A stretch of DNA of 64,000 bases, from NCBI GenBank assembly GCA_018433775.1, contig JAHDQN010000034.1, forward strand, positions 20,479 to 84,478, in the 5' to 3' direction. Below the pieces are notes generated by a model. The model worked only from the letters and a program-made list of their open reading frames with translations. It had not been told where the DNA came from and ran no database searches. Shown here in pieces: positions 35,981 to 58,331 of the stretch. Position numbers and translations under genes: made by a program. The DNA is from Deltaproteobacteria bacterium (lineage in GTDB: Bacteria; Desulfobacterota; Desulfomonilia; UBA1062). Each line of letters starts with the position of its first letter. Position 1 is the stretch's first letter.

Positions 35981-36085
35981 GAGCGCTCTCCTTTTGATGG
36001 TAAAGCCTGGACAGATTGGTGACATAATTATAAATAAGATCTCAAGGTCCGAATCCAATGTTTTGCGAGGCCGTATCCGTCCCGA

Positions 36086-39570: not shown

Positions 39571-40331
39571 CTCGTCTCCCTCACCTTGTACCGGAGCGCA
39601 CGCATCCTCAGCCAGGCAACCCCGGCCAGGTCCACTATTCCCGCCCAGAGCCTGCTGTTGATTCCCTGGCCGTACTTGCTCGTCCCTTTCAGACGCACAC
39701 GGTGGTTCACCGGCATCTCCGCCACGCGGTACCCTGCCATGATGAACAGCGCAGGAATAAACCGGTGCGCGTTGCGGAAAAACCTCACTTTGCCCAGACA
39801 CTCCCGCCTGAATACCCGCACCGAGCAGCCGACGTCCGTGATGTTGTCCTTGAGCACCCCGGAGCGCACCCGGTTGGCCACCACGCTCGATACCCGCCTG
39901 ATCATGTTGTCGGCCCTCTTATGCCTGATGCCGCACATCATGTCCACACACCTGGCCTCAAGCTCGTCTTTGAGCCGCAGAATGTCGCGGGGATCGTTCT
40001 GCCCGTCTCCGTCAAGGGTCGCCACGTATTCCCCGCATGCCGCGCCAAAACCCGCCTCCAGCGCCGCCGACTGGCCGCTGTTGGGCCAAAGATGCACCAC
40101 CCGCACGTTCCCGCCCTTCAGATCAAGGGCATCCAGGACCTCCGGCGTCCGGTCAGTGGAACCGTCATCAACCAGAATGAGCTCCCAGCCCAGCCCGGCC
40201 TGCTCAGCCAGCACCTCACACACCTCGCCGACAACCTCCTCGATGCACTCCTCCTCGTTGTAAAACGGCATGACTACACTCAGAGCTACATCACGACCGT
40301 TCAACAGCACACCTCTTCCTTTCTTTTTCAC
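39567..40331 (-). CDS. GT2 polyprenyl-phosphate glycosyltransferase (GtrB/ArnC/DPM1-like), copy 1
   Basis: LSVVMPFYNEEE, LILVDDGSTDRT, NSGQSAALEAGF, TLDGDGQNDPRDI, followed by two C-terminal TM-like helices. The track start is a GTG at 40331. TTG at 40304, with AGAGGTG upstream, is an alternative start. Confidence 0.8.
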   Translation of the reverse strand: MKKKGRGVLLNGRDVALSVVMPFYNEEECIEEVVGEVCEVLAEQAGLGWELILVDDGSTDRTPEVLDALDLKGGNVRVVHLWPNSGQSAALEAGFGAACGEYVATLDGDGQNDPRDILRLKDELEARCVDMMCGIRHKRADNMIRRVSSVVANRVRSGVLKDNITDVGCSVRVFRRECLGKVRFFRNAHRFIPALFIMAGYRVAEMPVNHRVRLKGTSKYGQGINSRLWAGIVDLAGVAWLRMRALRYKVRETR

Positions 40332-46518: not shown

Positions 46519-47370
46519 TCACACGGCGCATTTGAAAGCCCGGTGAGGCACCCGCCGGGTCTTCAGGCCCCGAACCGGCAGGGACGCCCTGTCGATCTCC
46601 TCGGCGATGTCGCACACCCTGCGGGTCGTGTACCCGAGCGACAGTGCGCGGTCGAGAATGCGCTCGAAATCATCCAGGTATCTGCCTCCCTCCACCTCGG
46701 CATGCACGGGCAGGACCCACGGGGTCTCAGATGCGGCGTTCCTGCCGAGGGCATCGAGCACCCCGGCCGCGCCCACCTCCTCGATGCAGGGGAGGTTCGA
46801 GGGCACCTCGAGCATCCTGTTCTCCTCGAACACGAAGGGGGCGGCGGCACGCGTGCAGCTCAGGTATGAAAAGCCGTAGACGGCGACTGCACCGAGCGCC
46901 CTCGAATCCACGCGCCAGCCAGGAGCACCGAATGCCGCGGGTCTGCTCCCCGTAACCTCGATAAAGGCATCCACCATGGAGCCAAGCCACTTCCTGACAG
47001 ATCCCATGCTCATGAAGGGAAGCCAGTCCTGCCACAGCCGGTGGTCCCAGGCATGGCAGGCCGTCTCGTGTCCGAGCTCACCGAGCTCCCTGATCCGCTC
47101 GGGAAAGGCACACCCGATCATCGGGGCCTTGAGCAGGGTGCCGTACAGGGCTGTCCTCCAGCCGTACATGGAGGGCGCGCCGGTCCTGAGCATCTTGAAG
47201 GCAAAGCGCGGCCGCAGGAGCTGAACGATTGCGAGCCCCGAGCGGTCGGGTCCGAAGCTGATGAAGAAGCTCGCCCGGATGCCCCTTTTTTCCAGCACTC
47301 CGGTGATCCGCGGCAGGTTCTGCATCCCGTGGAAGGTGTCGATGTCAACCTTGAGTGCCAGTACGGGCAT
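46519..47370 (-). CDS. arnD: 4-deoxy-4-formamido-L-arabinose-phosphoundecaprenol deformylase-like polysaccharide deacetylase
   Basis: LALKVDIDTFHGM...RASFFISFGPD...HAWDH NodB-type motifs. Lies inside the arn gene set. Confidence 0.8.
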   Translation of the reverse strand: MPVLALKVDIDTFHGMQNLPRITGVLEKRGIRASFFISFGPDRSGLAIVQLLRPRFAFKMLRTGAPSMYGWRTALYGTLLKAPMIGCAFPERIRELGELGHETACHAWDHRLWQDWLPFMSMGSVRKWLGSMVDAFIEVTGSRPAAFGAPGWRVDSRALGAVAVYGFSYLSCTRAAAPFVFEENRMLEVPSNLPCIEEVGAAGVLDALGRNAASETPWVLPVHAEVEGGRYLDDFERILDRALSLGYTTRRVCDIAEEIDRASLPVRGLKTRRVPHRAFKCAV

Positions 47371-48394
47371 GGTTCAGTCCGGCCTCCTTCAGAAAACTCT
47401 CGAGGGTGAGCCGCAGGGCATCGTCCAGCCCCACACGTGGCTGCCAGCCCAACAGCTTTCTGGCGTTCTCGATGCTGGGCACCCTCGTGCCGATATCCTG
47501 GTAGCTCTCGCCATAGAAGTTCACGGCGTCCTGAACCACGACCCGGGGGTCGTACCTTCCCGTGCCGAACACGGGGTGCTGCCTGAACAGGGCCATAAGC
47601 CTTTCGGCGAGATCTCGTATGGTGCAGTTGTTCGATGGGTTGCCGATGTTGAAGATCCGGGCCGAGGCCTTCCCTTCGCGGTTCTCGATAATGCGCATGA
47701 GGGCGTCGATGCCGTCGTCGATATAGGTGAAGGACCTGCTCTGATTCCCCCCGTCCACCAGCACGATGGGCTCATCCATGACCAGGGACGCGATGAACTG
47801 GGTCACGACCCGCGAGGATCCCTCCTTCGCGGTCTCGAGGGAATCAAGCCGTGGCCCTATCCAGTTGAAGGGCCGGATGATGGTGAAGTGGAGATCGCCC
47901 CTCTTGCCGTAGGCCCAGATCACCCTGTCCAGGAGCTGCTTCGAGCACGAGTAGATCCAGCGGTCCTTGTGAATGGGGCCGAGCACAAGGTTCGAGGCAT
48001 ACTCGTCAAAGCTTCCGTCGGCGCACATACCATAAACCTCGGAGGTCGAAGGGAAGATCACCCGCTTTCTGTACTTCACGCACTGCCGGATGATGTGCAG
48101 GTTTTCCTCGAAATCGAGCTCGAAGACTCCCAGGGGATTCTCGATATAGGTCTTGGGGGTGGCAATGGCAACCAGCGGCAGGACCACGTCGCACTTCTTG
48201 ACATGGTACTCTATCCACTCCTTGTTGATGGCGATATCCCCCTCGACGTAGTGGAACCGTTTATGGCCCACAGACCCGCCGAGCTTGTCACACCCGAGAT
48301 CCATCCCGTAGATGTCCCATTCGGTGTCCCTGAGAACGCGTGCGCTCAGGTGTGAGCCGATAAAACCGTTGACGCCCAGGATCAGGACTTTCAT
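47345..48394 (-). CDS. arnA: UDP-glucuronate oxidative decarboxylase (ArnA C-terminal-domain equivalent, stand-alone)
   Basis: MKVLILGVNGFIGSHL Rossmann fold, PSTSEVYG, YSCSKQLLD (YxxxK). ATGA overlap with the formyltransferase gene. Confidence 0.85.
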   Translation of the reverse strand: MKVLILGVNGFIGSHLSARVLRDTEWDIYGMDLGCDKLGGSVGHKRFHYVEGDIAINKEWIEYHVKKCDVVLPLVAIATPKTYIENPLGVFELDFEENLHIIRQCVKYRKRVIFPSTSEVYGMCADGSFDEYASNLVLGPIHKDRWIYSCSKQLLDRVIWAYGKRGDLHFTIIRPFNWIGPRLDSLETAKEGSSRVVTQFIASLVMDEPIVLVDGGNQSRSFTYIDDGIDALMRIIENREGKASARIFNIGNPSNNCTIRDLAERLMALFRQHPVFGTGRYDPRVVVQDAVNFYGESYQDIGTRVPSIENARKLLGWQPRVGLDDALRLTLESFLKEAGLNHARTGTQG

Positions 48395-49305
48395 GTCATG
48401 TATTCTCCCTGGTACGGCATAAAATATCTCTCCATGTCCCTGTCTCTCATAATCCTTCCGTCGACCTCCACCTCAAGGGGGTGCAGGGCATCCCTGCCGG
48501 TCCCGATGAGCACGGACCGGTCCGCATAGAAGATGAGCCCGGGGGAGAGCTGAATGCCTTCCCGTACCCCTGCCCGCCAGAAAACAACCTTTCCGCCTCC
48601 CAGATACCCGAAGGCCCCGGGGTAGGGCCTGGTGACCCCGCGTACGAGGTTGAATATCTCCCCGGCCTCCTTCTCCCAGCAGATGCGCCCGTCATCCGGC
48701 TTTCTGCCGCCAAAGTACGAGCCCTTGCCGAGATCCTGGGGGACCCTCGGGATATCCCTGTTCCGGATCCGGGGCAGGATGCCGTCGAGCATGCGCGAGG
48801 CCGTACCCTCGAGCTTGGCGAAGAGCGAAAGCGGGGTGTCCTCCGCATCGATCGGCACCCGCTCTTGGGCTACGATAGGGCCGGCGTCGGGCTTCTCGAC
48901 CATCTCGTGAAGCGTGACCCCGGTATACTCCTCGCCCCTGATGATCACCCAGTTCACCGGGCACCTTCCCCGGTAAGCCGGCAGGAGCGATCCGTGAAGG
49001 TTGTAGGCGCCCAGCGGAGCGAGGTCGAGGATTTCTTTGCCGAGCATGGACCGGTAGTAGAAGCTGAACATGATGTCCGGCCTCAGACCGCGGATACGCT
49101 CGACCCACCCCGGTGTGTTGGGGTCATCCGGGCTCCCGCATTCGAGCGACAGGCTCCGGCACAGGTCGGCCACCGAGCCGAACCAGATGTTCTCTGATGC
49201 GCTGTCGGCATGGGTGAGCACAAGGGGAATCTCGAAACCGTGCCGCACGAGCTTCCGGATACCCAGAACCCCCATGTTGTGATAGGCGAACACCACTGCC
49301 CGCAT
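48391..49305 (-). CDS. arnA: UDP-Ara4N formyltransferase (ArnA N-terminal-domain equivalent, stand-alone)
   Basis: MRAVVFAYHNMGV..., NLHGSLLPAYRGRCPVNWVII (formyltransferase HxSLLPxxRG motif). Abuts the arnC stop. Confidence 0.85.
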   Translation of the reverse strand: MRAVVFAYHNMGVLGIRKLVRHGFEIPLVLTHADSASENIWFGSVADLCRSLSLECGSPDDPNTPGWVERIRGLRPDIMFSFYYRSMLGKEILDLAPLGAYNLHGSLLPAYRGRCPVNWVIIRGEEYTGVTLHEMVEKPDAGPIVAQERVPIDAEDTPLSLFAKLEGTASRMLDGILPRIRNRDIPRVPQDLGKGSYFGGRKPDDGRICWEKEAGEIFNLVRGVTRPYPGAFGYLGGGKVVFWRAGVREGIQLSPGLIFYADRSVLIGTGRDALHPLEVEVDGRIMRDRDMERYFMPYQGEYMT

Positions 49306-50232
49306 TCAGTAGATCCTCCTTATGGTATACGAAGGCCTGCGTTTCACCTCCCGGTAGATTCTGCCAACATACTCGCCCATGATGCCGAACGCGAAGAACT
49401 GTGCCCCCACAAGGAAGAACATGACGGCAAACAGGGTGAACACACCTTCGGCGGCCCATGATGCGCCGAAGTACAGGCGGGCCACGGACAGGAACGCGCC
49501 GAACCCGACGCCAAACAGCGCGAGGAAAAACCCGGTGTAGAGCATGAGCTTCAGGGGAAACTCCGAGAAGGAGGTGATGAGGTCGAAATGAAGGCTGACG
49601 AGCTTCGCAAAGGAGTAGTTCGACTCGCCTGCAAAGCGGTCGGCGTGTGAGACCTCGATCTCGGTGATGCGCTTTGCGAAGGTTGTCGCAAGCGCGGGGA
49701 TAAAGGTAGAGTGCTCCCGGCTGCCCACCATGCGCTCGACCACGTGCCTCCGGTAGGCCCTGAGCATGCAGCCCCAGTCGTGCAGGTCCACGCCCGTGAT
49801 CTTCCGGGTCACGGCATTGACCATCCGGCTGGTTACTTTCCTGAAGGTGGTGTCCTTGCGGCACGCCCTGATCGTACCGACCACCTCGTAGTCGCCCTCC
49901 TCCATGGTCTGCACCAGCCGGGGGATCTCCCGGGGCGGGTTCTGGAGGTCGGCGTCCATGGTTACTACGATATCTCCATCACTGCTCTCGAAACCGGCGA
50001 ACACGGCTGCATGCTGGCCGTAGTTGCGCATCAGCTCAACCACCCTGACCTTTTCGCCCGCATGCTCCTGCAGCACCTCAAGAGAGCCGTCGGTGCTCCC
50101 GTCGTCCACCAGCACGATCTCGTACTCGCGCCGCATGCCTTCCATGACCGGGATGAGCTGCTCGAAAAGCATCCGCAAGCCCTGTTCCTCGTTGTAAACC
50201 GGAATCACAATCGATATCTTGCCCAAGTCCAT
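49306..50232 (-). CDS. arnC: Undecaprenyl-phosphate 4-deoxy-4-formamido-L-arabinose transferase (GT2)
   Basis: ISIVIPVYNEE, IVLVDDGSTDGS, NYGQHAAVFAGF, TMDADLQNPPREI, two C-terminal TM helices. RBS GGAGAGGAG. Confidence 0.85.
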   Translation of the reverse strand: MDLGKISIVIPVYNEEQGLRMLFEQLIPVMEGMRREYEIVLVDDGSTDGSLEVLQEHAGEKVRVVELMRNYGQHAAVFAGFESSDGDIVVTMDADLQNPPREIPRLVQTMEEGDYEVVGTIRACRKDTTFRKVTSRMVNAVTRKITGVDLHDWGCMLRAYRRHVVERMVGSREHSTFIPALATTFAKRITEIEVSHADRFAGESNYSFAKLVSLHFDLITSFSEFPLKLMLYTGFFLALFGVGFGAFLSVARLYFGASWAAEGVFTLFAVMFFLVGAQFFAFGIMGEYVGRIYREVKRRPSYTIRRIY

Positions 50233-50362: not shown

Positions 50363-51934
50363 TTATCGGGACGGGTTCACCATCCACAGCTCGATCTCTC
50401 TCTTGGCATCGCCTCCCACTCTCATGAGAAGGCTTGCCATGGAGGTGATCTCTCTCTTCAGGCCTGCGTCCAGCCTGCCCGGAAGCACGATGATATAGTC
50501 TGCCTCACGGTTGTTGATGGCCCTGATAAATTTATCGTCTTCCGTATAATTCTCCACCGGAAACCCTCCGTAGAAAGGCCCGAGGGCTTCTATCGTCTCG
50601 GTGAGCCGGTAGCCGATGACCTTGTGGTGCGACACCGCTTCGCCCAGATCAATGAAGAGCTGCTTGTAGCTTTTCAGCTGATCGATCTGACTGAAGGCGG
50701 CAGGGGTCCACAGAACGAGGGTCAGTGCCCAGCCCACGACGGCAAAATAAGGAAGGGACCGTCCACACCGCCTCCACACGAAAAGGAAGACCCCGGCATT
50801 GACGATCCCGATGCCCAGCGCCGCCCACCACGCGCCACCGGCCGCCACGAACCCGACGGGCAAGGCCACAGAGCAGGTGAGGATCAGTGCCGTTACGAGC
50901 CAGAGAAGTGCCCTTTCCCACGTGCGGGAACCCTCCGGTTTCCACATCGAAATCCACCGGCCGATGATGACTGCCATGGCCGGATACATGGGCAGGAAAT
51001 AGATTCCCCGTTTCGTAGAGGCTATGCTCAACAGGACCAGTCCTCCCAGGAACCACGAGTACAGGAACTTCTCCGTACCACCGGGTGCCCGTGTCCTGAT
51101 GAATGCCGGAACGAGCAGAATCGACCAGGGCAATGCATCGACGGGAACGCTCGTGAGATAGTAGTACAGGGGTCTGACATGGCCGCCGTGGTAGATGGTT
51201 CCGGGCATGAACCTGCCAAACTGGTTGTAGATATAGAAGGTATAGAGGAAGTCGTATCCTCCCCTGGCGTAGAGAATCCAGCCCCAGACGGCCATGAAAC
51301 ACATGGTGAGCGGAATTCCCCATGCCGCCCCGCTCTTCGCGATAATGCCGGCATCACGCTGCCACACCATGAATATGAGAATGCCAGCCCCGGGTATGGC
51401 GAGACCGATGATGCCCTTGGTCATGAAGGCCAGACCGATCATGATCCAGAACACGGGATATCCCCACCTCAGCATTCCCCGGTATGCAAGGATGAACGCG
51501 CACATCCCGGCCGTGATGAAGAAGACGAGTCCCACGTCCACGAGAATCTTGTGGGATGACTCAAAGAACCTCACGAAGGTTGCCAGGACGAGCACGGACA
51601 GTGCCGCCGTCTCATCGGAGTAGAGCCTGCGCGCGGTAAAGAAGACCGTCAGCAGCGTGCCGAAGGCGAACAGGAGCGAAGCAACCCTGCCGGCCTCCTG
51701 AAAATGCCTGCCGAAGAGCCTGCATGACGCGACCGCAACCAGGTAGTAGAGGGGCGGCTTTTCCAGGAAAGGCCTGCCCGCCAGGCTCGGTATGAGGCAC
51801 TCGCCCGTGTCGGCCATCTCACGCGTGATCTGGGCCTCGCGCGGCTCGTCGGGCGTCCAGAGCGAGTGGCCGAATACGCCGGTGAGCTGCAGGAAGAGGA
51901 CGAGAACGAGGGCTGCCCTGCCGATCGGCTTCAT
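50363..51934 (-). CDS. arnT: Ara4N transferase-like GT-C glycosyltransferase
   Basis: LWTPDEPREAQITREMADTGECLIPSLAGRPFLEKPPLYYL N-terminal signature, about 12 TM helices. First gene of the arn run. Confidence 0.8.
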   Translation of the reverse strand: MKPIGRAALVLVLFLQLTGVFGHSLWTPDEPREAQITREMADTGECLIPSLAGRPFLEKPPLYYLVAVASCRLFGRHFQEAGRVASLLFAFGTLLTVFFTARRLYSDETAALSVLVLATFVRFFESSHKILVDVGLVFFITAGMCAFILAYRGMLRWGYPVFWIMIGLAFMTKGIIGLAIPGAGILIFMVWQRDAGIIAKSGAAWGIPLTMCFMAVWGWILYARGGYDFLYTFYIYNQFGRFMPGTIYHGGHVRPLYYYLTSVPVDALPWSILLVPAFIRTRAPGGTEKFLYSWFLGGLVLLSIASTKRGIYFLPMYPAMAVIIGRWISMWKPEGSRTWERALLWLVTALILTCSVALPVGFVAAGGAWWAALGIGIVNAGVFLFVWRRCGRSLPYFAVVGWALTLVLWTPAAFSQIDQLKSYKQLFIDLGEAVSHHKVIGYRLTETIEALGPFYGGFPVENYTEDDKFIRAINNREADYIIVLPGRLDAGLKREITSMASLLMRVGGDAKREIELWMVNPSR

Positions 51935-52269
51935 GACAAGATCCTCGCATCAATGGTCCGAGTAGCCATATCTTTCATCAAAACAAGTCCTTTCCCGCTG
52001 GAGCGCCGCACACCTGTCCGGCCTCCGCCCCTGGAACGGGACACCCCATTCCCAGCGAAAAACACACCTTCATTGATGTCGAATATGGGTAATCGTCGAA
52101 GCTTACCTGGAGGTGACCAGGACATTATCACTCGGTAATGTCCTGTTGCATTGATGATCTATAGTATTAAAAAACAAAGCAACGCAAGAACAAAGCAGAA
52201 ACTCTTGCATCAGATTGCCTGCACGGCAAAAATCACAACGAAGCAGCCCGGTCTTTGGTTCCGGGCCCA

Positions 52270-53046
52270 TTATGTTGTTTTCGCGGCCGAGCTCGAAAGG
52301 GGTGTTTCATGGTCTTGTGCCCCGGGGCGCCTGCAGCCGCAATCACGGGAGTTGTCATCATGAGCCTCGGCAGGCATTTTTGTGTTGATCATTCTCCTGA
52401 GGATGATGATTGCGGCCAGGACCAGCACGGCGAACCCGACCTGCTTGAGGTTGCCCTCCAGGCCCCCGCTCCCGAAAGCGGCAAACACGACCGCAAGGGG
52501 CATGAAACCCAGCAGCGATCCCTGAACGTATGAGACGAACGGCACTTTGCAGCTTCCACAAAAAAGGCTCATGAGCGTGGAGTTCGAGAACGGGAAGAGC
52601 CTCCCATACAGGACCCACCAGAATGCATTCTCCTCTAACCGCTTCCGCCAGTACTCCAGCCGGCTTCCCATCCGCCTCTCCACTACCTGTGCGAGCAGAA
52701 ACCTGCCGGTGCAGTATACTATCGATGCACCCAGCAGAGATGCCAGGATCGAGAGCAGGGAACCGGTAACCGCCCCATAGACGATCCCGCCCACAGCGCT
52801 TGCCCACAGCCTTGGCACGCCCAATGCGATGATGCCTCCCCCGGCCAGAACGAACGCAAACACGGAAATCAGGCGGCCGGCATGCGAACTTCCTCCCTGC
52901 AGCAGGGAGCGGAAGGTCTGCACATCCAGAAGAAGCGTGCGGACTCCGGTTTTTTCCAGAATGAGTGTCGCCGCAACGAAGAATGCCGCCACCGCAGCCA
53001 CACGGCAGATGTCTCCGGCGAGCTTTCCGTCGAATCTGCTGCTCAT
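52270..53046 (-). CDS. TVP38/TMEM64 (DedA-superfamily) membrane protein, copy 2
   Basis: Paralogue of 38848-39570, collinear and roughly three-quarters identical by eye. ATG 53046 forms an ATGA overlap with the upstream GT2 stop. Confidence 0.75.
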   Translation of the reverse strand: MSSRFDGKLAGDICRVAAVAAFFVAATLILEKTGVRTLLLDVQTFRSLLQGGSSHAGRLISVFAFVLAGGGIIALGVPRLWASAVGGIVYGAVTGSLLSILASLLGASIVYCTGRFLLAQVVERRMGSRLEYWRKRLEENAFWWVLYGRLFPFSNSTLMSLFCGSCKVPFVSYVQGSLLGFMPLAVVFAAFGSGGLEGNLKQVGFAVLVLAAIIILRRMINTKMPAEAHDDNSRDCGCRRPGAQDHETPLSSSAAKTT

Positions 53047-53780
53047 TGCGATTTCCTCACCGTGTATTCCAGAGACCGCATTCTCAGCCAGGCAACTCCT
53101 GCCAGGTCGGCAATGCCGGCCCAGAGCCTGCTGTTGATACCTCTTCCATACTTGCTGACTCCCCTCAGCCGCGGGCGATGGTTGACCGGAGTCTCTGCCA
53201 CGGTATAGCCTGCCATGATCACAAGGGCGGGGAAAAACCGATGGGCGTTCCTGAAAAACCGGATACGGTGGAGACAGCTCCTCCTGAACACCCGCATCGA
53301 GCAGCCCACATCGGTAATACTGTCTTTCAGCACACCTGAGCGGACACGGTTTGCGACGAGGCTCGATAACTTCCGGAGAACGCTGTCGGCCCTGTTCCTC
53401 CTGATTCCGCACATCATGTCAATGCCTCTCGCCCTCAGCTCTTGGATCAGTGGCAGGATATCACGGGGATCATTCTGCCCGTCTCCGTCGAGAGTCGCGA
53501 TGAGCTCTCCCTGCGCAGCCTCGAATCCTGCCTCCAGGGCTGCCGACTGTCCGCTGTTGGGTGTAAGATGAAGGGTCCGGAAACGATCATCCTGCCGCGC
53601 GAGGGTGTCCATGATCTGCGGCGTCCGGTCCGTTGACCCGTCATTCACCATGATGAGCTCCCACATGAGCCCATCCTGTGCCGAAAGCACCTCCCGCACC
53701 TCTCCGCAAACGCTCTCAACGGATTCTTCTTCGTTGTAGAATGGTATAACCACACTCAGGACAACAGGGTATGCACTCAT
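53043..53780 (-). CDS. GT2 polyprenyl-phosphate glycosyltransferase (GtrB-like), copy 2
   Basis: LSVVIPFYNEEE, LIMVNDGSTDRT, NSGQSAALEAGF, TLDGDGQNDPRDI. Paralogue of 39567-40331. RBS GGAGAGG. Confidence 0.85.
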   Translation of the reverse strand: MSAYPVVLSVVIPFYNEEESVESVCGEVREVLSAQDGLMWELIMVNDGSTDRTPQIMDTLARQDDRFRTLHLTPNSGQSAALEAGFEAAQGELIATLDGDGQNDPRDILPLIQELRARGIDMMCGIRRNRADSVLRKLSSLVANRVRSGVLKDSITDVGCSMRVFRRSCLHRIRFFRNAHRFFPALVIMAGYTVAETPVNHRPRLRGVSKYGRGINSRLWAGIADLAGVAWLRMRSLEYTVRKSQ

Positions 53781-54071
53781 GGCGGTACCTCTCCATACTT
53801 CTCTGACGCGCTGTGGTCCCCTGCCCGATGAAATATGCAGGTTCCCCTTCTCTGCCTGTGCATCGCGATTCGGTGATGATGCCGGATCTCGGACGAGTCT
53901 GTACGACCCCGGGAATCAAGAGCAGGATGACCACTGATGCCACCATGATCATCCAGATCTTCAGGATTACGGCACCCAGGGTATTTTGTACCATGCATCC
54001 CTTATGGCGCATGTTGCTTGCAGGGAGCTTGTCGGAAGATTACGGGTGTGTAATGCGCGATTCCTGCTGGT

Positions 54072-55487
54072 TCAGCCAACGGGTACGGTAAGGGGGAGGA
54101 TGACGGTAAAGACGCTGGCCTGTGCCGGAGTGCTCTCCACCCTGATATCCCCTTTGTGAGCGTGCACGATGGCCTTTACATGGCTCAGTCCCAGGCCGTT
54201 TCCCGGTGTGGTTCGACTCCGGTCACCACGGTAGAACTGTTCGAAGACCCGTGGCAGGTCCTGATCCGCTATACCGATGCCGGTATCGGCAACCACCACG
54301 ACAGCATGAGTGTCCCTTTCCTCGAGCGACAGGGTAATACTCCCGCCGGCGGGAGTGAACTTGAAGGCGTTGTCCAGCAGATTAGAGATCATCCTCTGGA
54401 GCTGCGGGAGATTCCCCCGTACGAAAAGCCTCTCGCGGGGAACATTTACCTGGAAAGCCACCCCCTTGTCTTCTGCAATGGCCTGGAAGATTTCTTCCGT
54501 GCTTTCGATCAGCCTGCTGATATTCACGTCTTCTTTTATGGCATCCTGGACACCAGCTTCGGTCATGGCGATGTCGAGCATGACATTGATCATTCCCACG
54601 AGGCGATCGCTCTCTTCCACGACGATTTCGGCCATCTCCCGATAATCATCCACGGTCTGCTGCCGGCCCGTCATGGTGGTCTCGGCGATGCCCCGTATCC
54701 TGGTCAGGGGGCTCCTGAGATCATGGGCGATGTGGTTTGTCACATCCTTCAACTCTGTGACTACGCCGCGGATCCGCTCCAGCATATCATTGAACGCCTG
54801 CGCGAGATTGTTGATCTCTTCCCCCTCGTTTCCCAAAGGGACCCGGCTCACCAGATCCGCCTTGCCGATGCTCACTGCAGTCCGGGTGACCCTCTCCACG
54901 CCTGCCATGGCCCGTCTCGCCATGAACCATCCCATGACGCCGCCGCTCACCAGCATGATCATAACGGCCAGGGCGGAGCCCTCCCGGTAGACCTCCATCA
55001 GTTCCTCGTCGTCCTGCAGTGTGCTGCCTATCTGCAGGATTCCTCCTCCGGCAATCCTTTTCGATGCCACCCTGGCATTGTTGCTCTTCCCAGGCATCTG
55101 CAGGGTTTCGATCACCTCATCCCCTTCCCGGAGATCCTCCCTGCCTCCGGGCGGATGAATGCTGCCCCAGGAGCTCATATCTGTCGTCACCAGGACCTCG
55201 CCGCGAGGGTCCATAACCCGGATGAACATCCTGTTCGTCCCTTCCGATTCGATCTCGAAGTCGATCTGGCGCCTGAGCTCTTCGATGCCCCGGACATGGT
55301 AAATGGTCTCCATTTCCCGGATCTCATTCGTGAGATCTTCATCCATCCTGATGGCGAGACTCTTGGTGAGGGCAAGGGAAATAATCCCGAAAAAGGCGAC
55401 GGAGACCAGGGTGATCAGAATCGCATACCGCAGGGTGAGACGGGATGTGACGGTCTTGAAAAAGCTACTCGCGCTGCTCGAGCACAT
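54072..55487 (-). CDS. Sensor histidine kinase (2 TM, periplasmic domain, HAMP, HisKA, HATPase)
   Basis: H-box HIAHDLRSPLTRIRG. N/G boxes LLDNAFKFTP, DTGIGIADQDLPRVFEQFYRGD, GNGLGLSHVKAIV. Overlaps the RR stop by 23 nt. Confidence 0.9.
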   Translation of the reverse strand: MCSSSASSFFKTVTSRLTLRYAILITLVSVAFFGIISLALTKSLAIRMDEDLTNEIREMETIYHVRGIEELRRQIDFEIESEGTNRMFIRVMDPRGEVLVTTDMSSWGSIHPPGGREDLREGDEVIETLQMPGKSNNARVASKRIAGGGILQIGSTLQDDEELMEVYREGSALAVMIMLVSGGVMGWFMARRAMAGVERVTRTAVSIGKADLVSRVPLGNEGEEINNLAQAFNDMLERIRGVVTELKDVTNHIAHDLRSPLTRIRGIAETTMTGRQQTVDDYREMAEIVVEESDRLVGMINVMLDIAMTEAGVQDAIKEDVNISRLIESTEEIFQAIAEDKGVAFQVNVPRERLFVRGNLPQLQRMISNLLDNAFKFTPAGGSITLSLEERDTHAVVVVADTGIGIADQDLPRVFEQFYRGDRSRTTPGNGLGLSHVKAIVHAHKGDIRVESTPAQASVFTVILPLTVPVG

Positions 55488-56145
55488 ACCCCACTCCCCG
55501 TATGGTGTGGATCAGCTTTTTGTCGAACTGGCGGTCGATCTTGTCGCGGAGGCGGCATATGCCAGTTTCCACGACATTGGTCTGGGGATCGAAGTTGTAG
55601 TCCCACACATGCTCGATGATCATGGTCTTCGACAGCACGTTCCCGGCGTTGCGCATGAGATATTCCAGAAGGGAAAACTCGAGCGCCTTGAGCTCGATGG
55701 GCTTCCCCGAGCGGAATGCCTTTCTCTTGATGAGATCCAGGGTGAGATCCGCCACGGTCAGGACCGTGGTCATTCCTGTGGAGGAGGTCCTGCGCAGATG
55801 TGCCTGGATGCGGGCCAGAAGCTCGGAGAAGGCAAAAGGCTTGGTCATGTAGTCATCACCTCCCCGCTGAAGGCCTTTCACCCGGTCGTCCACCGTGCCC
55901 TTTGCGCTGAGCACGATGACCGGGAAGGTGACCTTGTGCCGGCGTATTCGTTCGATCAGAGAGAGGCCGTCAAGGCCGGGGAGCATGATATCGACGACAG
56001 CAATATCGAACGACTCGCTCAGGGCCAGGGAAAGTCCCGTGTCTCCATCAGGAGCATGCTCCACGACGAAACCCGCCTGCTTCAGCCCCCTTACAATGAA
56101 CAGGGCTGTTCGTTCGTCATCTTCAACCAGCAGGCATCTCATCAT
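55465..56145 (-). CDS. OmpR/PhoB-family response regulator
   Basis: MRCLLVEDDE...DIAVVDIMLPGLDG...KPF receiver domain plus a winged-helix output domain (LKALEFSLLEYLMRNAGNVLSK...IHTIRGVGYVL). Start at the ATG pair 56145/56142. Confidence 0.9.
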   Translation of the reverse strand: MMRCLLVEDDERTALFIVRGLKQAGFVVEHAPDGDTGLSLALSESFDIAVVDIMLPGLDGLSLIERIRRHKVTFPVIVLSAKGTVDDRVKGLQRGGDDYMTKPFAFSELLARIQAHLRRTSSTGMTTVLTVADLTLDLIKRKAFRSGKPIELKALEFSLLEYLMRNAGNVLSKTMIIEHVWDYNFDPQTNVVETGICRLRDKIDRQFDKKLIHTIRGVGYVLEQRE

Positions 56146-56331
56146 GTATCTCCATCGCTCGAGCCACAAGATCTCCAGTCCTCGCGACCCTGTTCCCAGC
56201 CTGCCTCTGAAACACCCACAGGGGGAAAGGCCGAGCTCGGGAATTATCGTTTTTGTCCGGCTTCACTTCCATATCCTGCACCTGGAGGTTCATGGTCCAC
56301 CTTGGATCACTGATTCTGCTACCGACATAGC

Positions 56332-57894
56332 TCAGCGGGTCTGCCGTTTCAAGGGGGAATACACGTAGTAGACCTTCTCCTGAACCGGGATCGTTTCGAC
56401 AAGGCGCAGACCCAGACGCGACCCGTCCAGAACCGAGGTGGTTATGACGGCTGCCCCGGCCGGGTTGACTTTCGGAATGGAGGCCTCTCCCTCCGGGAGC
56501 GGCCGGATCTTCCTTCCCGACGCCCAGATCAGTTCAGGAGACGGATCTCCGATGAAATAGAGTTCTCTGCCCTCAATCTCCGGGTTATCCCGGAGTTCCA
56601 TGAGTACGATAGTGCCGTCCCTGCCCAGGATCTCCTCCTTCAGCGGCGTGATCAGCACCAGACACAGACAGAGCCCGGCAACGACCACCAGATGGGTATT
56701 CCTGGTATGCTTCCTGATCAGGTTCGAAAGAATCACGCCGCCCGCGACCGTGAGACCGAATGCACCCGCGACCGCGGCAGGCGTATGATTATACCGGAAG
56801 ACAAGCATACCCGCGACAACCAGAAAAGCGATGCCCGAAACCATGCAGAAAGGCCCGTAGACGAGTTTCCACGCCCGGTCTCCAGTCTCTCGCAGGCGAA
56901 GGATCGCCATCGCCGAGACGGCAGCGGCCGGAACAAGGGCAGGCATAAGGTAACGGATCTTCTTCTCAGGAACTATGGAGAGAAAGACGATGGTCAGGAT
57001 GAACCAGAAGACGAAAAGCTTCTCACTCCTGCTCCAGCCCTTCCCGACAAGGGGAGCGACAGCCGCGTAGAGGAGAAAGGACAGCCACGGGCCCGTCACC
57101 CAGTGAAGATTGAGCAGGTAGTACCACGGTGGCTCACGGTGATAGGAGAACCAGTTGGCGGTCTCCCTGGATGCCACCGCCATCGCATCCTGTGGTGTGT
57201 TGAAGTACACGTAGAGAGGCCAGGTCCCGGCCAGGAGGACGGCGATGCCGGCTGCAGGGACAAACCACTTCATGTTTGCCTTGAGGTCACCTGCTCCGCA
57301 GGCCATCCAGTAGCCCGCCAGAAAGGGGATGAACATGGCCCACAGTGCCACCGGCCCCTTGCTGAGAAAGGAGAAGGCCATGAAAAACGTGAGCAGGAGA
57401 AGGTAGGGCATCTTTCCTTCCCTGCGTGCGAACACCTCTGCCAAGGCCCAGATCGCGCCGGCCATGGATGTGACGGCGTAAATATCCCAGAAGTTTCTCC
57501 TCCCGGTCCAGAGAAAGAGCTGGCCTGTTGCGAGCACGAGCACGGACGTGACGGCAAGCCTCCTGTCCCCGGTGATTCTCCTGACCACCAGAAAGGTGAA
57601 CAGGACGAGCAGGACCCTGCATATCCCTGCGGGAAGGCGATTGGCGACGAGGTCTGCATCGGTCCCGGCGGCTTTCATGGCAAGGGCGGTGATCCAGGTG
57701 GGCAACGGAGGCTTGGCGATCCTGAGTTCGCCGTTCATGGTCGGCAGGAGCCACGAGCCGTCCTGCAGGATCTCACGCGCGGTGATATAGTTCCTTGCCT
57801 CCATGTTGTTGACCGTGGGGAGATCACTGCCCACAAAAACGCAAACGAAAACTGCTGCTGTGAGAAGAACCATGCCCGGTATCCTGAACTGCAT
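56332..57894 (-). CDS. GT-C fold glycosyltransferase (ArnT/GT39-like), copy 3
   Basis: NNMEARNYITAREILQDGSWLLPTMNGELRIAKPPLPTWI N-terminal signature, about 12 TM helices, soluble C-terminus. ATG 57894 is preceded by GGAGAGAGGGAG. Confidence 0.8.
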   Translation of the reverse strand: MQFRIPGMVLLTAAVFVCVFVGSDLPTVNNMEARNYITAREILQDGSWLLPTMNGELRIAKPPLPTWITALAMKAAGTDADLVANRLPAGICRVLLVLFTFLVVRRITGDRRLAVTSVLVLATGQLFLWTGRRNFWDIYAVTSMAGAIWALAEVFARREGKMPYLLLLTFFMAFSFLSKGPVALWAMFIPFLAGYWMACGAGDLKANMKWFVPAAGIAVLLAGTWPLYVYFNTPQDAMAVASRETANWFSYHREPPWYYLLNLHWVTGPWLSFLLYAAVAPLVGKGWSRSEKLFVFWFILTIVFLSIVPEKKIRYLMPALVPAAAVSAMAILRLRETGDRAWKLVYGPFCMVSGIAFLVVAGMLVFRYNHTPAAVAGAFGLTVAGGVILSNLIRKHTRNTHLVVVAGLCLCLVLITPLKEEILGRDGTIVLMELRDNPEIEGRELYFIGDPSPELIWASGRKIRPLPEGEASIPKVNPAGAAVITTSVLDGSRLGLRLVETIPVQEKVYYVYSPLKRQTR

Positions 57895-58331
57895 TACTCC
57901 CTCTCTCCTGCTCGTCACCCTCTGTCTCCAAGACCCGAAAAGCTTTTCTACGCCTGCAGTTGGTCCGGAAGCTTGTTGCGAGCTGCTGATCCAAAGGCAT
58001 GCCGCACTACGCCGAGTTCTTGCAAGCTGGTACGCCCACGGGAAAAGGACGCGCGGCAACAAGCCCGCGGCCGCAAGATGCCTTCTCTGCACAGCGCCCT
58101 GTTTGCCCACGGTGTTCCCGGTGGTGCAACTCTTTCTCCGGGAACGCGTACCCCTCGACAACGCGCTGCCCTGTTTCAAGAACCCGTTGGAGCCCTCTCG
58201 TGCACGTGGACACAATGTATACCGAGAATGGACCATTCAGCTTACACCAGCTTTGTCCAAAGATTACCATCCTGTTAACTTGACCCCTTGGAGAAAAACC
58301 CGGGGCAATCTCCCGATGGTGAAGATCATGA

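What the first reader, a model, noticed from the sequence alone, without database searches (positions are those of the whole stretch)
52270..58236. GT-C transferase + two-component system + coupled GT2/TVP38 pair: candidate Gtr-like surface-glycosylation module with a DedA-type protein in the flippase slot
Seen: on the minus strand the order is GT39-like GT-C (57894-56332), OmpR-type RR, HK, GtrB-like GT2 (53780-53043), then a TVP38/DedA-superfamily protein whose ATG overlaps the GT2 stop (ATGA at 53046-53043). Established: three-component systems such as GtrA/B/C and ArnC/EF/T build a polyprenyl-phosphate-sugar on the cytoplasmic face with a GT2 enzyme, flip it with a small flippase, and transfer it periplasmically with a GT-C enzyme. 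DedA-superfamily proteins have been implicated in undecaprenyl-phosphate translocation and in Ara4N-dependent polymyxin resistance. Inference: here the small GtrA/ArnEF-type flippase is absent, and a translationally coupled TVP38 protein sits exactly where it would be. This suggests a DedA/TVP38-dependent lipid-carrier flipping or recycling step dedicated to a TCS-linked modification of unknown sugar and acceptor.
Basis: partly seen in the sequence, partly recalled or inferred. Interest (0 to 1): 0.7.

Follow-up and report, generated by a model that had tools for sequence, protein, structure and literature searches.

The report
Anchorless sugar-lipid enzyme paired with TVP38 protein
A sugar-transferring enzyme that has lost its own membrane anchor is always made together with a small TVP38/DedA-type membrane protein, next to an outer-face transferase. 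The pairing is widely conserved and undescribed, and it gives a testable job to a membrane-protein family whose bacterial function is unknown.

Summary
All five genes, their order and the ATGA overlap at 53046-53043 are confirmed.

- A second copy of the GT2/TVP38 pair lies 13 kb away, with both proteins 71% identical and a GTGA overlap.
- A complete Ara4N (arn) pathway, a DedA-PAP2 fusion and an MprF-type flippase-like gene lie between the two pairs.

The GT2 is an ArnC/GtrB-class catalytic domain that lacks the C-terminal membrane hairpin.

GT2-TVP38 adjacency is conserved in 38 of 45 assessable genome loci. The two genes usually overlap, and an ArnT-like GT-C lies within 2.5 kb in 33 of those 38. 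In more distant relatives, the slot after the GT2 holds either a TVP38/VTT protein (29 loci) or an unrelated semiSWEET-like LAB_N protein (33 loci).

The best-studied analogue, GacI/GacJ, shows that this slot can hold an activator/anchor subunit rather than a flippase.

My best reading is that the TVP38 protein is an obligate membrane partner of the anchorless GT2. It probably also moves the lipid-linked sugar across the membrane. That step is inferred, not shown.

Sugar and acceptor are unknown; galacturonic acid is a weak lead.

I rate this a new variant of a known kind, with moderately high interest.

The parts
56332..57894 (-). GT-C #1, an ArnT-like polytopic glycosyltransferase (520 aa). 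It is the likely periplasmic transferase for pair a.
   Evidence: Pfam PMT 2e-5 and NCBIfam ArnT 4e-17, far below the cut-off. Orthologues at 43-60% identity flank GT2-VTT pairs in many loci. It is only 25% identical to GT-C #3.
55465..56142 (-). OmpR-family response regulator
   Evidence: Pfam Response_reg plus Trans_reg_C. The closest NCBIfam subfamily is the heavy-metal CusR/CopR type, 266 bits against a cut-off of 279.
54072..55487 (-). Sensor histidine kinase (HAMP-HisKA-HATPase). It overlaps the response-regulator gene by 23 nt.
   Evidence: The closest subfamily is the heavy-metal sensor kinase type, 245 bits against a cut-off of 293.
53043..53780 (-). GT2a, an anchorless ArnC/GtrB-class polyprenyl-phosphate glycosyltransferase catalytic domain (245 aa)
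   Evidence: PF00535 8.6e-32. ArnC model 9.4e-34 over model positions 8-211 of 316 only. PDB ArnC 1.5e-31, GtrB and DPMS. The AF2 model shows a GT-A fold plus a short C-terminal helix at 218-232 and no TM hairpin. The Foldseek top 25 are all ArnC, GtrB or DPMS.
52270..53046 (-). VTTa, a TVP38/COG0398-type VTT-domain membrane protein (258 aa), translationally coupled to GT2a
   Evidence: PF09335 5.4e-18, with no NCBIfam hit. The AF2 model has DedA-like topology with re-entrant tips G-V-P-R79 and P152-F-S-N. 182 homologues were found, and JGI names them YdjX/TVP38 family.
53043..53046 (-). ATGA stop/start overlap between GT2a and VTTa
   Evidence: Read directly. Overlaps of the same kind occur in 30 of 38 related genome loci and in most metagenome loci.
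52227..52266 (-). Possible intrinsic terminator after VTTa: GCCCGG, a 9-nt loop, CCGGGC, then a T-rich tail
   Evidence: Read. The scan reported the same palindrome only on the + strand. The evidence is weak.
39567..40331 (-). GT2b, a paralogue of GT2a (254 aa, 71% identical)
   Evidence: The orthologue in L030 is 91% identical and lies directly after a GT-C #3 orthologue.
38848..39570 (-). VTTb, a paralogue of VTTa (240 aa, 71% identical), with a GTGA overlap with GT2b at 39570-39567
43229..44806 (-). GT-C #3, ArnT-like (about 525 aa). It is the likely partner of pair b.
   Evidence: PMT_2 2.2e-10 and ArnT model 3.9e-35. A GT-C #3 type enzyme follows GT2-VTT or GT2-LAB_N in many loci.
50363..51934 (-). 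GT-C #2, ArnT-like, at the head of the arn genes. It is context and not part of the GT2-VTT module.
   Evidence: ArnT model 4.3e-37. It occupies the same position in the arn operons of L011 and L014.
46519..50232 (-). Ara4N pathway genes: ArnC-like full-length GT2 (50232-49306), formyltransferase (49305-48391), UDP-GlcA decarboxylase (48394-47345) and ArnD-like deformylase (47370-46519)
   Evidence: ArnC 3.9e-115; formyltransferase 347 bits against a cut-off of 316; NF008872 550 bits against 294; ArnD 4.9e-44.
44976..46415 (-). DedA (COG0586/UptA-like)-PAP2 fusion. It is the likely Und-PP phosphatase plus Und-P recycler.
   Evidence: Pfam VTT_dom plus PAP2. NCBIfam DedA 2e-29 and UptA 3.9e-24. 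This fusion type is described in 10.1101/2022.02.03.479048 and PMC9881974.
40823..43005 (-). ArnB-like aminotransferase (43005 or 42891 to 41758) and a PF03706 MprF-type flippase-like protein (41761-40823)
   Evidence: ArnB followed by a flippase-like gene is also seen in L014.

Best explanation
The window holds two paralogous two-gene modules, GT2a-VTTa and GT2b-VTTb. They sit in an envelope-modification island of a Desulfomonilia-like bacterium.

Each GT2 is an ArnC/GtrB-class enzyme that puts a sugar from a nucleotide-sugar onto undecaprenyl phosphate at the cytoplasmic face. It has lost the two C-terminal transmembrane helices of that class.

The TVP38-type VTT protein is made from the same mRNA by overlapping stop/start codons. 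I propose it is the GT2's obligate membrane subunit, with two roles. It supplies the membrane-embedded part that holds the enzyme at the lipid carrier. It also acts as an energy-independent scramblase that passes the Und-P-sugar product to the outer leaflet.

There, the neighbouring ArnT-like GT-C transfers the sugar to lipid A, LPS core or another periplasmic acceptor (GT-C #1 for pair a, GT-C #3 for pair b). Expression is probably set by the adjacent OmpR-type two-component system.

- **Shown:** domain identities, loss of the hairpin, the coupling, the co-duplication, and the conservation of the GT2-VTT(-GT-C) arrangement.
- **Inferred:** physical complex, flipping, lipid carrier, sugar and acceptor.
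For: **Enzyme class**
- The closest sequences and folds are only ArnC, GtrB and DPMS.
- The alignment and the AF2 model both end before any TM hairpin.

**Coupling and conservation**
- The window has ATGA and GTGA overlaps.
- Both proteins of the two pairs are 71% identical, so the pair was duplicated and kept as a unit.
- 38 of 45 assessable genome loci have the short GT2 directly 5' of the VTT gene. The genes overlap in 30 of those 38.
- The taxa include Desulfobacterota, Lysobacterales, Thermodesulfovibrionia and Sumerlaeota.
- Remote VTT proteins (E about 1e-22 to the family profile) are preceded by the same GT2.

**GT-C link**
- A GT-C lies within 2.5 kb in 33 of 38 genome loci.
- GT2-VTT-GT39 is an annotated operon on the Alteromonas macleodii plasmid pAlt83_a. 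It sits beside a two-component system and a lipid A phosphoethanolamine transferase.

**Transport role**
- In 72 assessable loci of the wider GT2 family, the slot holds VTT in 29 and LAB_N in 33.
- LAB_N is a 3-TM semiSWEET-like family, and a tandem member also hits the MtN3_slv model.
- The two partner types are intermixed on a rough GT2 tree.
- Both alternative occupants therefore come from transporter or scramblase superfamilies.
- No GtrA-, ArnEF- or Wzx-like gene lies in the island.

**Against a recycling role**
- VTTa has VPR where the UptA-like DedA in the same island has VPGE, and only one of the two re-entrant-loop arginines.
- This matches the COG0398 signature, which resembles eukaryotic scramblases (PMC9881974).

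**Precedent for an obligate small membrane partner**
- GacI/GacJ and PpgS/Rv3632 show such a partner directly 3' of an anchorless GT2 (10.1101/180810).
Against: - Nothing here shows a physical complex. No natural GT2-VTT fusion was found, and no multimer model could be run.
- In the one characterised analogue (GacI/GacJ), the partner only stimulates catalysis, and a separate Wzx protein is proposed to flip.
- The conserved C-terminal tail of the GT2 is the same whether the partner is VTT or LAB_N. It therefore gives no sign of partner-specific contacts.
- A few VTT genes of this clade lack an adjacent GT2 (L019, L023, L031, L039, L040).
- Three GT2 loci go straight into the GT-C with no partner.
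- A flippase could be encoded elsewhere in the genome.
- The PF03706 flippase-like protein in the island lies about 490 nt upstream of GT2b and could serve more than the arn pathway.
Confidence: 0.5

Rival explanations
1. Anchor/activator only. The VTT protein (and LAB_N elsewhere) replaces the missing TM hairpin. It tethers the GT2 and presents Und-P, as GacJ does for GacI, Rv3632 for PpgS and DPM3 for DPM1. The Und-P-sugar is flipped by something else, encoded elsewhere or non-specific.
For: - The GT2 lacks the hairpin.
- The gene order and tight coupling match gacI-gacJ, where complex formation and stimulation were measured and a separate Wzx is the proposed flippase.
- Overlapping genes imply 1:1 production, which is typical of subunits.
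Against: - Both families that fill the slot belong to transporter or scramblase superfamilies. A 6-8-helix VTT protein is large for a mere anchor.
- Self-contained GT2-VTT-GT-C and GT2-LAB_N-GT-C cassettes on plasmids carry no other candidate flippase.
Confidence: 0.22
2. Carrier recycling. The VTT protein returns free Und-P from the outer to the inner leaflet after the GT-C reaction, like UptA/DedA. It is co-expressed with the GT2 simply to keep the carrier supplied.
For: - DedA-superfamily members are established Und-P recyclers needed for Ara4N modification (PMC12893004 listed; PMC13552734 read; 10.1101/2022.02.03.479048 read).
- B. subtilis UptA is encoded with a TCS-controlled GT2/GT39/GtrA glycosylation set.
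Against: - VTTa hits no UptA or DedA NCBIfam model, while the DedA-PAP2 fusion in the same island does.
- VTTa lacks the acidic residues tied to PMF-driven Und-P transport (PMC9881974).
- Recycling does not explain strict coupling to an anchorless GT2, or replacement by LAB_N.
- The island already has a dedicated recycler candidate.
Confidence: 0.13
3. A different lipid. The GT2 glycosylates a phospholipid or other non-polyprenyl lipid, and the VTT protein scrambles that glycolipid. The neighbouring GT-C is then functionally unrelated.
For: - Eukaryotic VTT proteins scramble phospholipids (PMC9881974).
- The island also has an MprF-type flippase-like gene with a weak hit to a glucosaminyl-phosphatidylglycerol flippase model (8.9e-4).
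Against: - The GT2's only close relatives in sequence and fold are polyprenyl-phosphate enzymes.
- A GT-C, which uses polyprenyl-phosphate-sugar donors, is adjacent in most loci and often overlaps the partner gene.
Confidence: 0.07

Closest known systems
GacI/GacJ/GacK/GacL of Streptococcus pyogenes, and PpgS/Rv3632 of M. tuberculosis
   Same: An anchorless GT2 makes a Und-P-monosaccharide. A small polytopic membrane protein is encoded directly 3' of it. A GT-C enzyme uses the product outside the membrane (10.1101/180810).
   Different: The partner here is a roughly 240-aa VTT/TVP38 protein, not a 113-aa DUF2304 protein. No Wzx-type flippase is encoded. The GT2 is closer to ArnC (1e-33) than to PpgS (1e-14 to 1e-16). 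The host is a diderm, and the GT-C is ArnT-like.
GtrA/GtrB/GtrC and ArnC/ArnEF/ArnT three-component systems
   Same: The logic is the same: a GT2 loads a sugar on Und-P, the product crosses the membrane, and a polytopic transferase uses it. The catalytic domain is homologous to GtrB and ArnC. A genuine arn set lies next door.
   Different: GT2a lacks the TM hairpin that GtrB and ArnC have. No GtrA (PF04138) or ArnE/F is present. The gene order differs: the partner lies 3' of the GT2 and overlaps it.
UptA/DedA (COG0586) Und-P recyclers, such as B. subtilis YngC in the YclJK regulon, and DbcA, DkcA and DpcA
   Same: They share the Pfam domain PF09335. They also share a genomic link to TCS-controlled GT2/GT39 surface glycosylation and to polymyxin-type lipid A modification.
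   Different: VTTa belongs to a different subfamily (TVP38/COG0398). It has no acidic residues in re-entrant loop 1 and matches no UptA model. The UptA-like role is more plausibly filled by the DedA-PAP2 fusion at 46415-44976.
RgtE/RgtA-D,F galacturonosylation of rhizobial LPS
   Same: A bactoprenyl-phosphate GalA synthase feeds several ArnT-like GT-C enzymes that decorate lipid A and core (PMC7663294). A UDP-GlcA 4-epimerase-like gene, with Ugd in four cases, sits beside the module in 7 of 126 related loci.
   Different: No RgtE sequence was available to compare. No epimerase or Ugd gene lies in this window. The sugar here is unassigned.
GT2-LAB_N-GT39 operons (annotated in Azospirillum, Ilyobacter and Thalassospira; uncharacterised)
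   Same: They share the short GT2 family (41-44% identical), the same coupled slot and the same GT-C type. A two-component system is adjacent in two of the three.
   Different: The partner is a roughly 90-110-aa semiSWEET-like PF07578 protein instead of a VTT protein.

Membership tests
Polyprenyl-phosphate glycosyltransferase (GtrB/ArnC/DPMS class of GT2) | GT-A catalytic domain with a DxD-type metal/nucleotide motif, most similar to ArnC, GtrB and DPMS | tested here: met
   PF00535 8.6e-32. ArnC 1.5e-31 in the PDB. The Foldseek top 25 are all ArnC, GtrB or DPMS (TMq 0.64-0.77). An invariant T-L-D-G-D-G-Q-N-D-P motif is present.
Polyprenyl-phosphate glycosyltransferase (GtrB/ArnC/DPMS class of GT2) | C-terminal transmembrane helices (two in GtrB/ArnC) that anchor the enzyme and form the tetramer | tested here: not met
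   The protein ends 33 residues after the SKYG motif. The alignment to ArnC stops at model position 211 of 316. The AF2 model shows one 15-residue helix only.
Polyprenyl-phosphate glycosyltransferase (GtrB/ArnC/DPMS class of GT2) | Transfers a sugar from a nucleotide-sugar to undecaprenyl phosphate | not testable with these tools
   This needs an enzyme assay.
ArnC (equivalog NF007986) | Score above the curated cut-off | tested here: not met
   GT2a scores 116.8 bits and GT2b 112.7 bits against a cut-off of 529. The neighbouring 308-aa gene scores 384.
DedA superfamily / VTT domain (PF09335) | Pfam domain above the gathering score, with two re-entrant loops flanked by TM helices | tested here: met
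   66.1 bits against a cut-off of 33.9. The AF2 topology has short helix pairs at 79-90 and at 141-150/156-165.
UptA-type Und-P transporter (COG0586) | Match to UptA/DedA equivalog models; acidic residues in re-entrant loop 1 and two arginines in loop 2 | tested here: not met
   There is no NCBIfam hit for VTTa or VTTb, while the DedA-PAP2 fusion hits UptA at 3.9e-24. VTTa has G-V-P-R and G-R-L-F-P-F-S-N. The criteria come from PMC9881974.
TVP38/COG0398 subfamily | Assignment to YdjX/TVP38; lacks loop-1 acids | tested here: inconclusive
   JGI names homologues 'YdjX (TVP38/TMEM64 family)', and the motif pattern fits. No COG model was run here.
Gtr-type three-component glucosylation (GtrA/B/C) | A GtrA-family (PF04138) small flippase is encoded with the GT2 | tested here: not met
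   There is no small hydrophobic ORF in 33-59 kb.
GacI/GacJ-type two-subunit Und-P-sugar synthase | Anchorless GT2 with a small membrane protein gene directly 3' of it | tested here: met
GacI/GacJ-type two-subunit Und-P-sugar synthase | The partner belongs to DUF2304 | tested here: not met
   The partner matches PF09335 only.
GacI/GacJ-type two-subunit Und-P-sugar synthase | The partner binds the GT2 and raises its activity | not testable with these tools
   This needs co-purification and kinetics. The multimer prediction that could model the interface was also not available.
ArnT (equivalog NF009784) for the three GT-C proteins | Score above the curated cut-off of 567 bits | tested here: not met
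   The scores are 62, 128 and 121.5 bits. The three proteins are about 25% identical to each other. They are ArnT-like in fold class only.

The most novel reading that the evidence does not exclude
A clade of bacterial TVP38/COG0398 proteins, and independently the semiSWEET-like LAB_N proteins (PF07578), are dedicated scramblases for undecaprenyl-phosphate-monosaccharides. They dock onto an anchorless GT2 and form a synthase-translocase complex that channels the lipid-linked sugar directly to an ArnT-like GT-C. This would be the first assigned substrate for bacterial TVP38-type proteins, and a new answer to how Und-P-sugars cross the membrane.
Probability: 0.4. Interest if true: 0.78.

Novelty: new variant of a known kind. 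Interest (0 to 1): 0.62.

Why it matters
- **An open step.** How Und-P-linked monosaccharides cross the cytoplasmic membrane is poorly established, even for GtrA and ArnE/F.
- **Two families without a function.** The function of bacterial TVP38/COG0398 DedA proteins is openly listed as unknown (PMC9881974). LAB_N (PF07578) has no assigned role.
- **A testable hypothesis for both.** A deeply conserved, translationally coupled pairing of either family with an anchorless polyprenyl-phosphate GT2 and an ArnT-like GT-C gives both families a concrete hypothesis.
- **A cultivable system.** The Alteromonas macleodii plasmid pAlt83_a is a place to test it.
- **Wider relevance.** The module sits among lipid A modification genes (arn, eptA) and two-component systems, so it probably encodes an uncharacterised, regulated envelope decoration relevant to cationic-peptide or metal tolerance.
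- **For annotators.** The DedA-type gene beside a GT2 is not automatically a Und-P recycler.

Tried and rejected
1. **Natural GT2-VTT fusions as Rosetta-stone evidence.** None appeared among the top 120 GT2 homologues, the top 120 VTT homologues or the 150 VTT representatives. The one long candidate, P0286, is an RHS/VTT chimera.
2. **Profile alignment of VTTa to the island's DedA domain.** hhalign gave no usable alignment, so motif comparison rests on the shared Pfam model coordinates.
3. **Solved structures for the VTT protein.** There is no sequence hit and no meaningful fold hit.
4. **Partner-specific residues in the GT2 tail.** The tail is conserved alike in VTT- and LAB_N-partnered enzymes, so it is uninformative about the interface.
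5. **Promoter and terminator scan of the island.** Nothing rose above background except a hairpin after VTTa that I read by eye.
6. **Bordetella lgm and rhizobial rgt literature, to find a characterised homologue.**
   - The lgm paper read had no lgmC/D or flippase text.
   - The two rgt primary papers are not held.
   - One literature search was wasted on 'LGMD' noise.
7. **VTTa against plasmid records.** There was no hit at 1e-8. The Alteromonas VTT example was found through the GT2 instead.
8. **The idea that the module is simply part of the Ara4N pathway.** Rejected, because a separate full-length ArnC and ArnT are present, and most related loci have no arn genes (2 of 38).

Full report
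**1. What is in the window**

On the minus strand between 58.3 kb and 33.5 kb there is one long co-directional island. In transcription order it holds the following genes.

| Coordinates | Gene | Main evidence |
|---|---|---|
| 57894-56332 | GT-C #1 | PMT 2e-5; ArnT model 4e-17 |
| 56142-55465 | OmpR-type response regulator | |
| 55487-54072 | HAMP/HisKA/HATPase kinase | |
| 53780-53043 | Short GT2a, 245 aa | PF00535 8.6e-32 |
| 53046-52270 | VTT/TVP38 protein VTTa | PF09335 5.4e-18 |
| 51934-50363 | ArnT-like GT-C #2 | ArnT model 4.3e-37 |
| 50232-49306 | Full-length ArnC-like GT2, 308 aa | 3.9e-115 |
| 49305-48391 | Stand-alone formyltransferase | 347 bits, cut-off 316 |
| 48394-47345 | UDP-GlcA decarboxylase type enzyme | 550 bits, cut-off 294 |
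| 47370-46519 | ArnD-like deformylase | 4.9e-44 |
| 46415-44976 | DedA-PAP2 fusion | UptA model 3.9e-24 |
| about 44806-43229 | GT-C #3 | ArnT model 3.9e-35 |
| to 41758 | ArnB-like aminotransferase | 7.5e-138 |
| 41761-40823 | PF03706 MprF-type 'flippase-like' protein | 7.1e-33 |
| 40331-39567 | Second short GT2b | |
| 39570-38848 | Second VTT protein VTTb | |
| 38608-33491 | MgtA-type and H+-type P-type ATPases | above cut-off |

Homologues are named from Desulfomonilia, Syntrophaceae and 'Deltaproteobacteria' MAGs.

**2. Checking the observation**

- The junction reads ...AAA TCG CAA TGA. The VTT ATG starts on the last base of CAA, giving the 4-nt ATGA overlap.
- The paralogous pair has the same geometry with GTGA.
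- GT2a and GT2b are 71% identical, and so are VTTa and VTTb. The pair was therefore duplicated as a unit, and both members were kept.
- No small hydrophobic ORF of GtrA or ArnE/F size exists anywhere in 33-59 kb.

**3. The GT2 is an anchorless ArnC/GtrB-class enzyme**

- Its best matches in NCBIfam, in PDB sequences and in PDB folds are exclusively polyprenyl-phosphate glycosyltransferases: ArnC 9bhc/8vxh/9hwj, GtrB 5ekp and DPMS 5mlz.
- All alignments stop at the conserved S-K-Y-G motif near residue 212, and only 33 residues remain.
- The AF2 model (pLDDT 80) gives a single 15-residue helix at 218-232, where ArnC and GtrB have two TM helices.
- The family is large: 7571 hits at E<=1e-10 among the candidates scored. 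It is also very conserved. The top 120 hits are 244-287 aa long and 63-79% identical to GT2a.
- The C-terminal tail is highly conserved too, with R218, D225, W231 and R235 invariant.

**4. The VTT protein is TVP38-type, not UptA-type**

- VTTa and VTTb hit no NCBIfam model, whereas the island's DedA-PAP2 fusion hits DedA and UptA models. The two are unrelated at BLAST level.
- At the Pfam-aligned start of the domain, VTTa has G-V-P-R where the fusion has V-P-G-E.
- In the second re-entrant region, VTTa has G-R-L-F-P-F-S-N where the fusion has G-R-F-A-G-I-L-R.
- That is the signature Todor et al. give for COG0398. They consider this subfamily unlikely to be Und-P flippases and closest to the eukaryotic scramblases TMEM41B and VMP1 (PMC9881974).
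- The AF2 model (pLDDT 77) has the expected DedA-like topology. No solved relative exists.
- A search of 1.84 billion representatives gave a sharply bounded core of 49 clusters at E<=1e-30. Below that lies the generic TVP38 background.

**5. Conservation of the pairing**

*Forward test, starting from the VTT protein.* A scan of one genome per GTDB species with the VTT profile gave 46 loci.
- In 38 of the 45 assessable loci, an intact short GT2 lies directly 5' of the VTT gene on the same strand. These GT2s are 41-91% identical to GT2a or GT2b, and most are 58% or more.
- In 30 of those 38, the best start codon overlaps the end of the GT2 gene by 1-20 nt. The commonest form is ATGA.
- The taxa go beyond Desulfobacterota to Lysobacterales and other Gammaproteobacteria, Thermodesulfovibrionia and Sumerlaeota.
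- A GT-C lies within 2.5 kb in 33 of 38. A response regulator or kinase at 35% identity or more lies in the locus in 12 of 38. arn genes are present in only 2 of 38.
- Pair a orthologues travel with GT-C #1 (L002-L015). Pair b's orthologue in L030 follows GT-C #3.
- The window therefore seems to hold three parallel sets: ArnC/ArnT, GT2a-VTTa/GT-C #1 and GT2b-VTTb/GT-C #3. The three GT-C proteins are only about 25% identical to each other.

*Reverse test, starting from the GT2.* A metagenome scan with the GT2 profile kept 80 loci with GT2s 38-66% identical. The gene directly 3' of the GT2 was assessable in 72 of them.

| Occupant of the slot | Loci |
|---|---|
| LAB_N protein (PF07578, about 90-125 aa, or tandem about 220 aa) | 33 |
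| VTT protein, often only 25-36% identical to VTTa | 29 |
| The GT-C itself | 3 |
| Unclear or spurious ORF | 7 |

- L109 was reassigned from 'other' to VTT on the strength of its tblastn hit.
- Most of these junctions also overlap.
- LAB_N is a 3-TM family. A tandem member also hits the SWEET model MtN3_slv.
- On a rough, unbootstrapped neighbour-joining tree of the GT2s, the window's clade is uniformly VTT-partnered. Deeper in the family, VTT and LAB_N partners are intermixed. This suggests repeated replacement of one partner by the other.
- Three remote VTT representatives (E 1e-22 to 1e-25) are also preceded by the same GT2 type. Representatives further out are mixed.

**6. Cultured, annotated examples**

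- Alteromonas macleodii plasmid pAlt83_a carries, next to a divergent RR/HK pair, GT2 (244 aa), a 'VTT domain-containing protein' (238 aa), GT39 (580 aa) and a phosphoethanolamine-lipid A transferase.
- Azospirillum sp. B510, Ilyobacter polytropus and Thalassospira marina carry GT2-LAB_N-GT39. A two-component system is adjacent in the latter two.
- A Sinorhizobium meliloti replicon has a full-length 339-aa GT2 followed by GT39, with a divergent PF03706 flippase-like gene.
- These cases link the module to lipid A and LPS modification and to two-component control. They also give tractable hosts.

**7. What it most likely does**

The known logic of GtrABC, ArnC/EF/T and GacIJKL is as follows. A GT2 loads a monosaccharide on Und-P inside the cell. 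The lipid crosses the membrane. A polytopic GT-C then transfers the sugar outside. The module fits that logic.

The open question is the role of the VTT protein. There are three candidate roles.

- **Anchor/activator.** This is supported by the missing hairpin and by the GacI/GacJ and PpgS/Rv3632 precedent. There, the small membrane protein encoded directly after the anchorless GT2 binds it and raises its activity, and a separate Wzx is proposed to flip (10.1101/180810).
- **Und-P-sugar translocase.** This is supported by three points. No other flippase candidate lies in the island or in the self-contained plasmid cassettes. Both families that alternate in the slot belong to transporter or scramblase superfamilies. 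An energy-independent scramblase would suffice, because the GT-C pulls the flux.
- **Und-P recycler.** This is the documented DedA role. It is weakened by the subfamily signature, by the presence of a better candidate (the DedA-PAP2 fusion), and by its failure to explain the strict coupling or the LAB_N replacement.

I therefore favour a dual role as obligate membrane subunit and translocase (0.5). Activator-only comes next (0.22), then recycling (0.13), then a non-polyprenyl lipid (0.07).

**8. Sugar and acceptor**

- Both are unassigned.
- The only recurrent nucleotide-sugar gene beside the module is an SDR epimerase. Its members are 53-91% identical to each other.
- Its best PDB matches are 5u4q and the 6zl6 group. 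From memory, the 6zl6 group is Bacillus cereus UDP-GlcA 4-epimerase.
- It is present in 7 of 126 loci, and UDP-glucose 6-dehydrogenase accompanies it in four.
- Two of those loci (L027, L029) have GT2s 66-72% identical to the window's.
- This hints at galacturonic acid, as in the rhizobial RgtE/RgtA-F system (PMC7663294).
- The window has no such gene, and I could not obtain an RgtE sequence.
- The two-component system is closest to the CusRS/heavy-metal subfamily, just under cut-off, rather than to PmrAB or PhoPQ.

**9. Comparison and novelty**

- The system works like a Gtr/Arn/Gac-type lipid-linked monosaccharide pathway.
- It is not a member of the ArnC, ArnT, UptA, GtrA or GacJ families by their defining features (see the membership table).
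- Full-text searches found no paper that links TVP38, VTT or COG0398, or LAB_N, with GT2 or GT39 enzymes.
- The library is incomplete, so prior description cannot be excluded.
- I class this as a new variant of a known kind. The architecture is three-component, but the synthase is split, and its membrane half is a TVP38-type (or semiSWEET-type) protein.

**10. Limits**

- Everything about complex formation, flipping, carrier, sugar and acceptor is inference.
- The metagenome loci are the best 80 of at least 597, so they are not an unbiased sample.
- The tree has no support values.
- Start codons in other loci were chosen by homology.
- Only 64 kb of this genome was visible.

Noticed in passing
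window 40823-41761 (-); L014 4556-5467; L134 2895-3854: A PF03706 (MprF TM-domain, 'flippase-like') protein overlaps the end of the ArnB-like gene by 4 nt. It sits between ArnB and ArnC in L014 (52% identical). No ArnE/F is present. It may replace ArnE/F as the Und-P-Ara4N flippase. A PF03706 gene also lies divergent from a GT2-GT39 pair in S. meliloti.
   Followed up: partly
window 44976-46415 (-): A DedA (UptA-like, 3.9e-24)-PAP2 fusion lies inside the arn island. It could be a one-protein Und-PP phosphatase plus Und-P recycler. Orthologues at 57-58% identity occur in L018 and L049, near GT2-VTT pairs.
   Followed up: partly
window 47345-49305 (-): ArnA is split into two genes, a formyltransferase and a decarboxylase. 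They are joined by a 4-nt overlap, and both score above their NCBIfam cut-offs.
   Followed up: partly
L052, L055, L098, L063 and 29 other metagenome loci; L133, L135, L137, L138: LAB_N (PF07578) proteins occupy the slot after the short GT2. They occur as single 3-TM units, as tandem duplications of about 220 aa, and once as LAB_N x2 fused to an LpxB-like domain (L063, 595 aa). In Paracoccus the order is LAB_N-GT39-GT2.
   Followed up: partly
L027 1269-2261; L029 10681-11694; L082; L094; L104 1315-3506; L107; L118: A UDP-GlcA 4-epimerase-like SDR lies beside the GT2 module, with VTT or LAB_N partners alike. UDP-glucose 6-dehydrogenase accompanies it in four loci. This suggests GalA as the sugar in those loci.
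   Followed up: partly
L136 (Alteromonas macleodii plasmid pAlt83_a, NZ_OX335041.1 94464-102364): A cultured organism carries RR/HK, GT2, a VTT protein, GT39 and a lipid A phosphoethanolamine transferase together on a plasmid. The same block is found on several A. macleodii plasmids (H15-H18).
   Followed up: partly
P0032: A 429-aa protein combines a PilZ domain (PF07238) with a VTT domain that is 57% identical to VTTa. This hints at c-di-GMP control in some members.
   Followed up: no
window 33491-38608 (-); L130 3001-6495: MgtA-type and proton-type P-type ATPases lie directly 3' of pair b. An unrelated TVP38 gene in L130 is also followed by a P-type cation ATPase.
   Followed up: no
L027 and L029: Two paralogous GT2-VTT-epimerase loci occur in one Lysobacterales MAG. 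Duplication of the module is therefore not unique to this window.
   Followed up: no
window 52227-52266 (-): A GC-rich hairpin with a 9-nt loop and a T-rich tail lies right after the VTTa stop. It may end a GT2a-VTTa transcript before the arn genes.
   Followed up: no
L045 9576-9861: In Desulfocicer vacuolatum DSM 3385, the only cultured strain among the genome loci, the GT2 upstream of the VTT gene survives only as two short fragments. It is probably a pseudogene.
   Followed up: no
window 61544-62476 (+): A 310-aa EamA/DMT-like 10-TM protein lies 3 kb upstream of the island on the other strand. It belongs to the same superfamily as ArnE/F but is full-length and not obviously linked. This call rests on reading the sequence only.
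   Followed up: no
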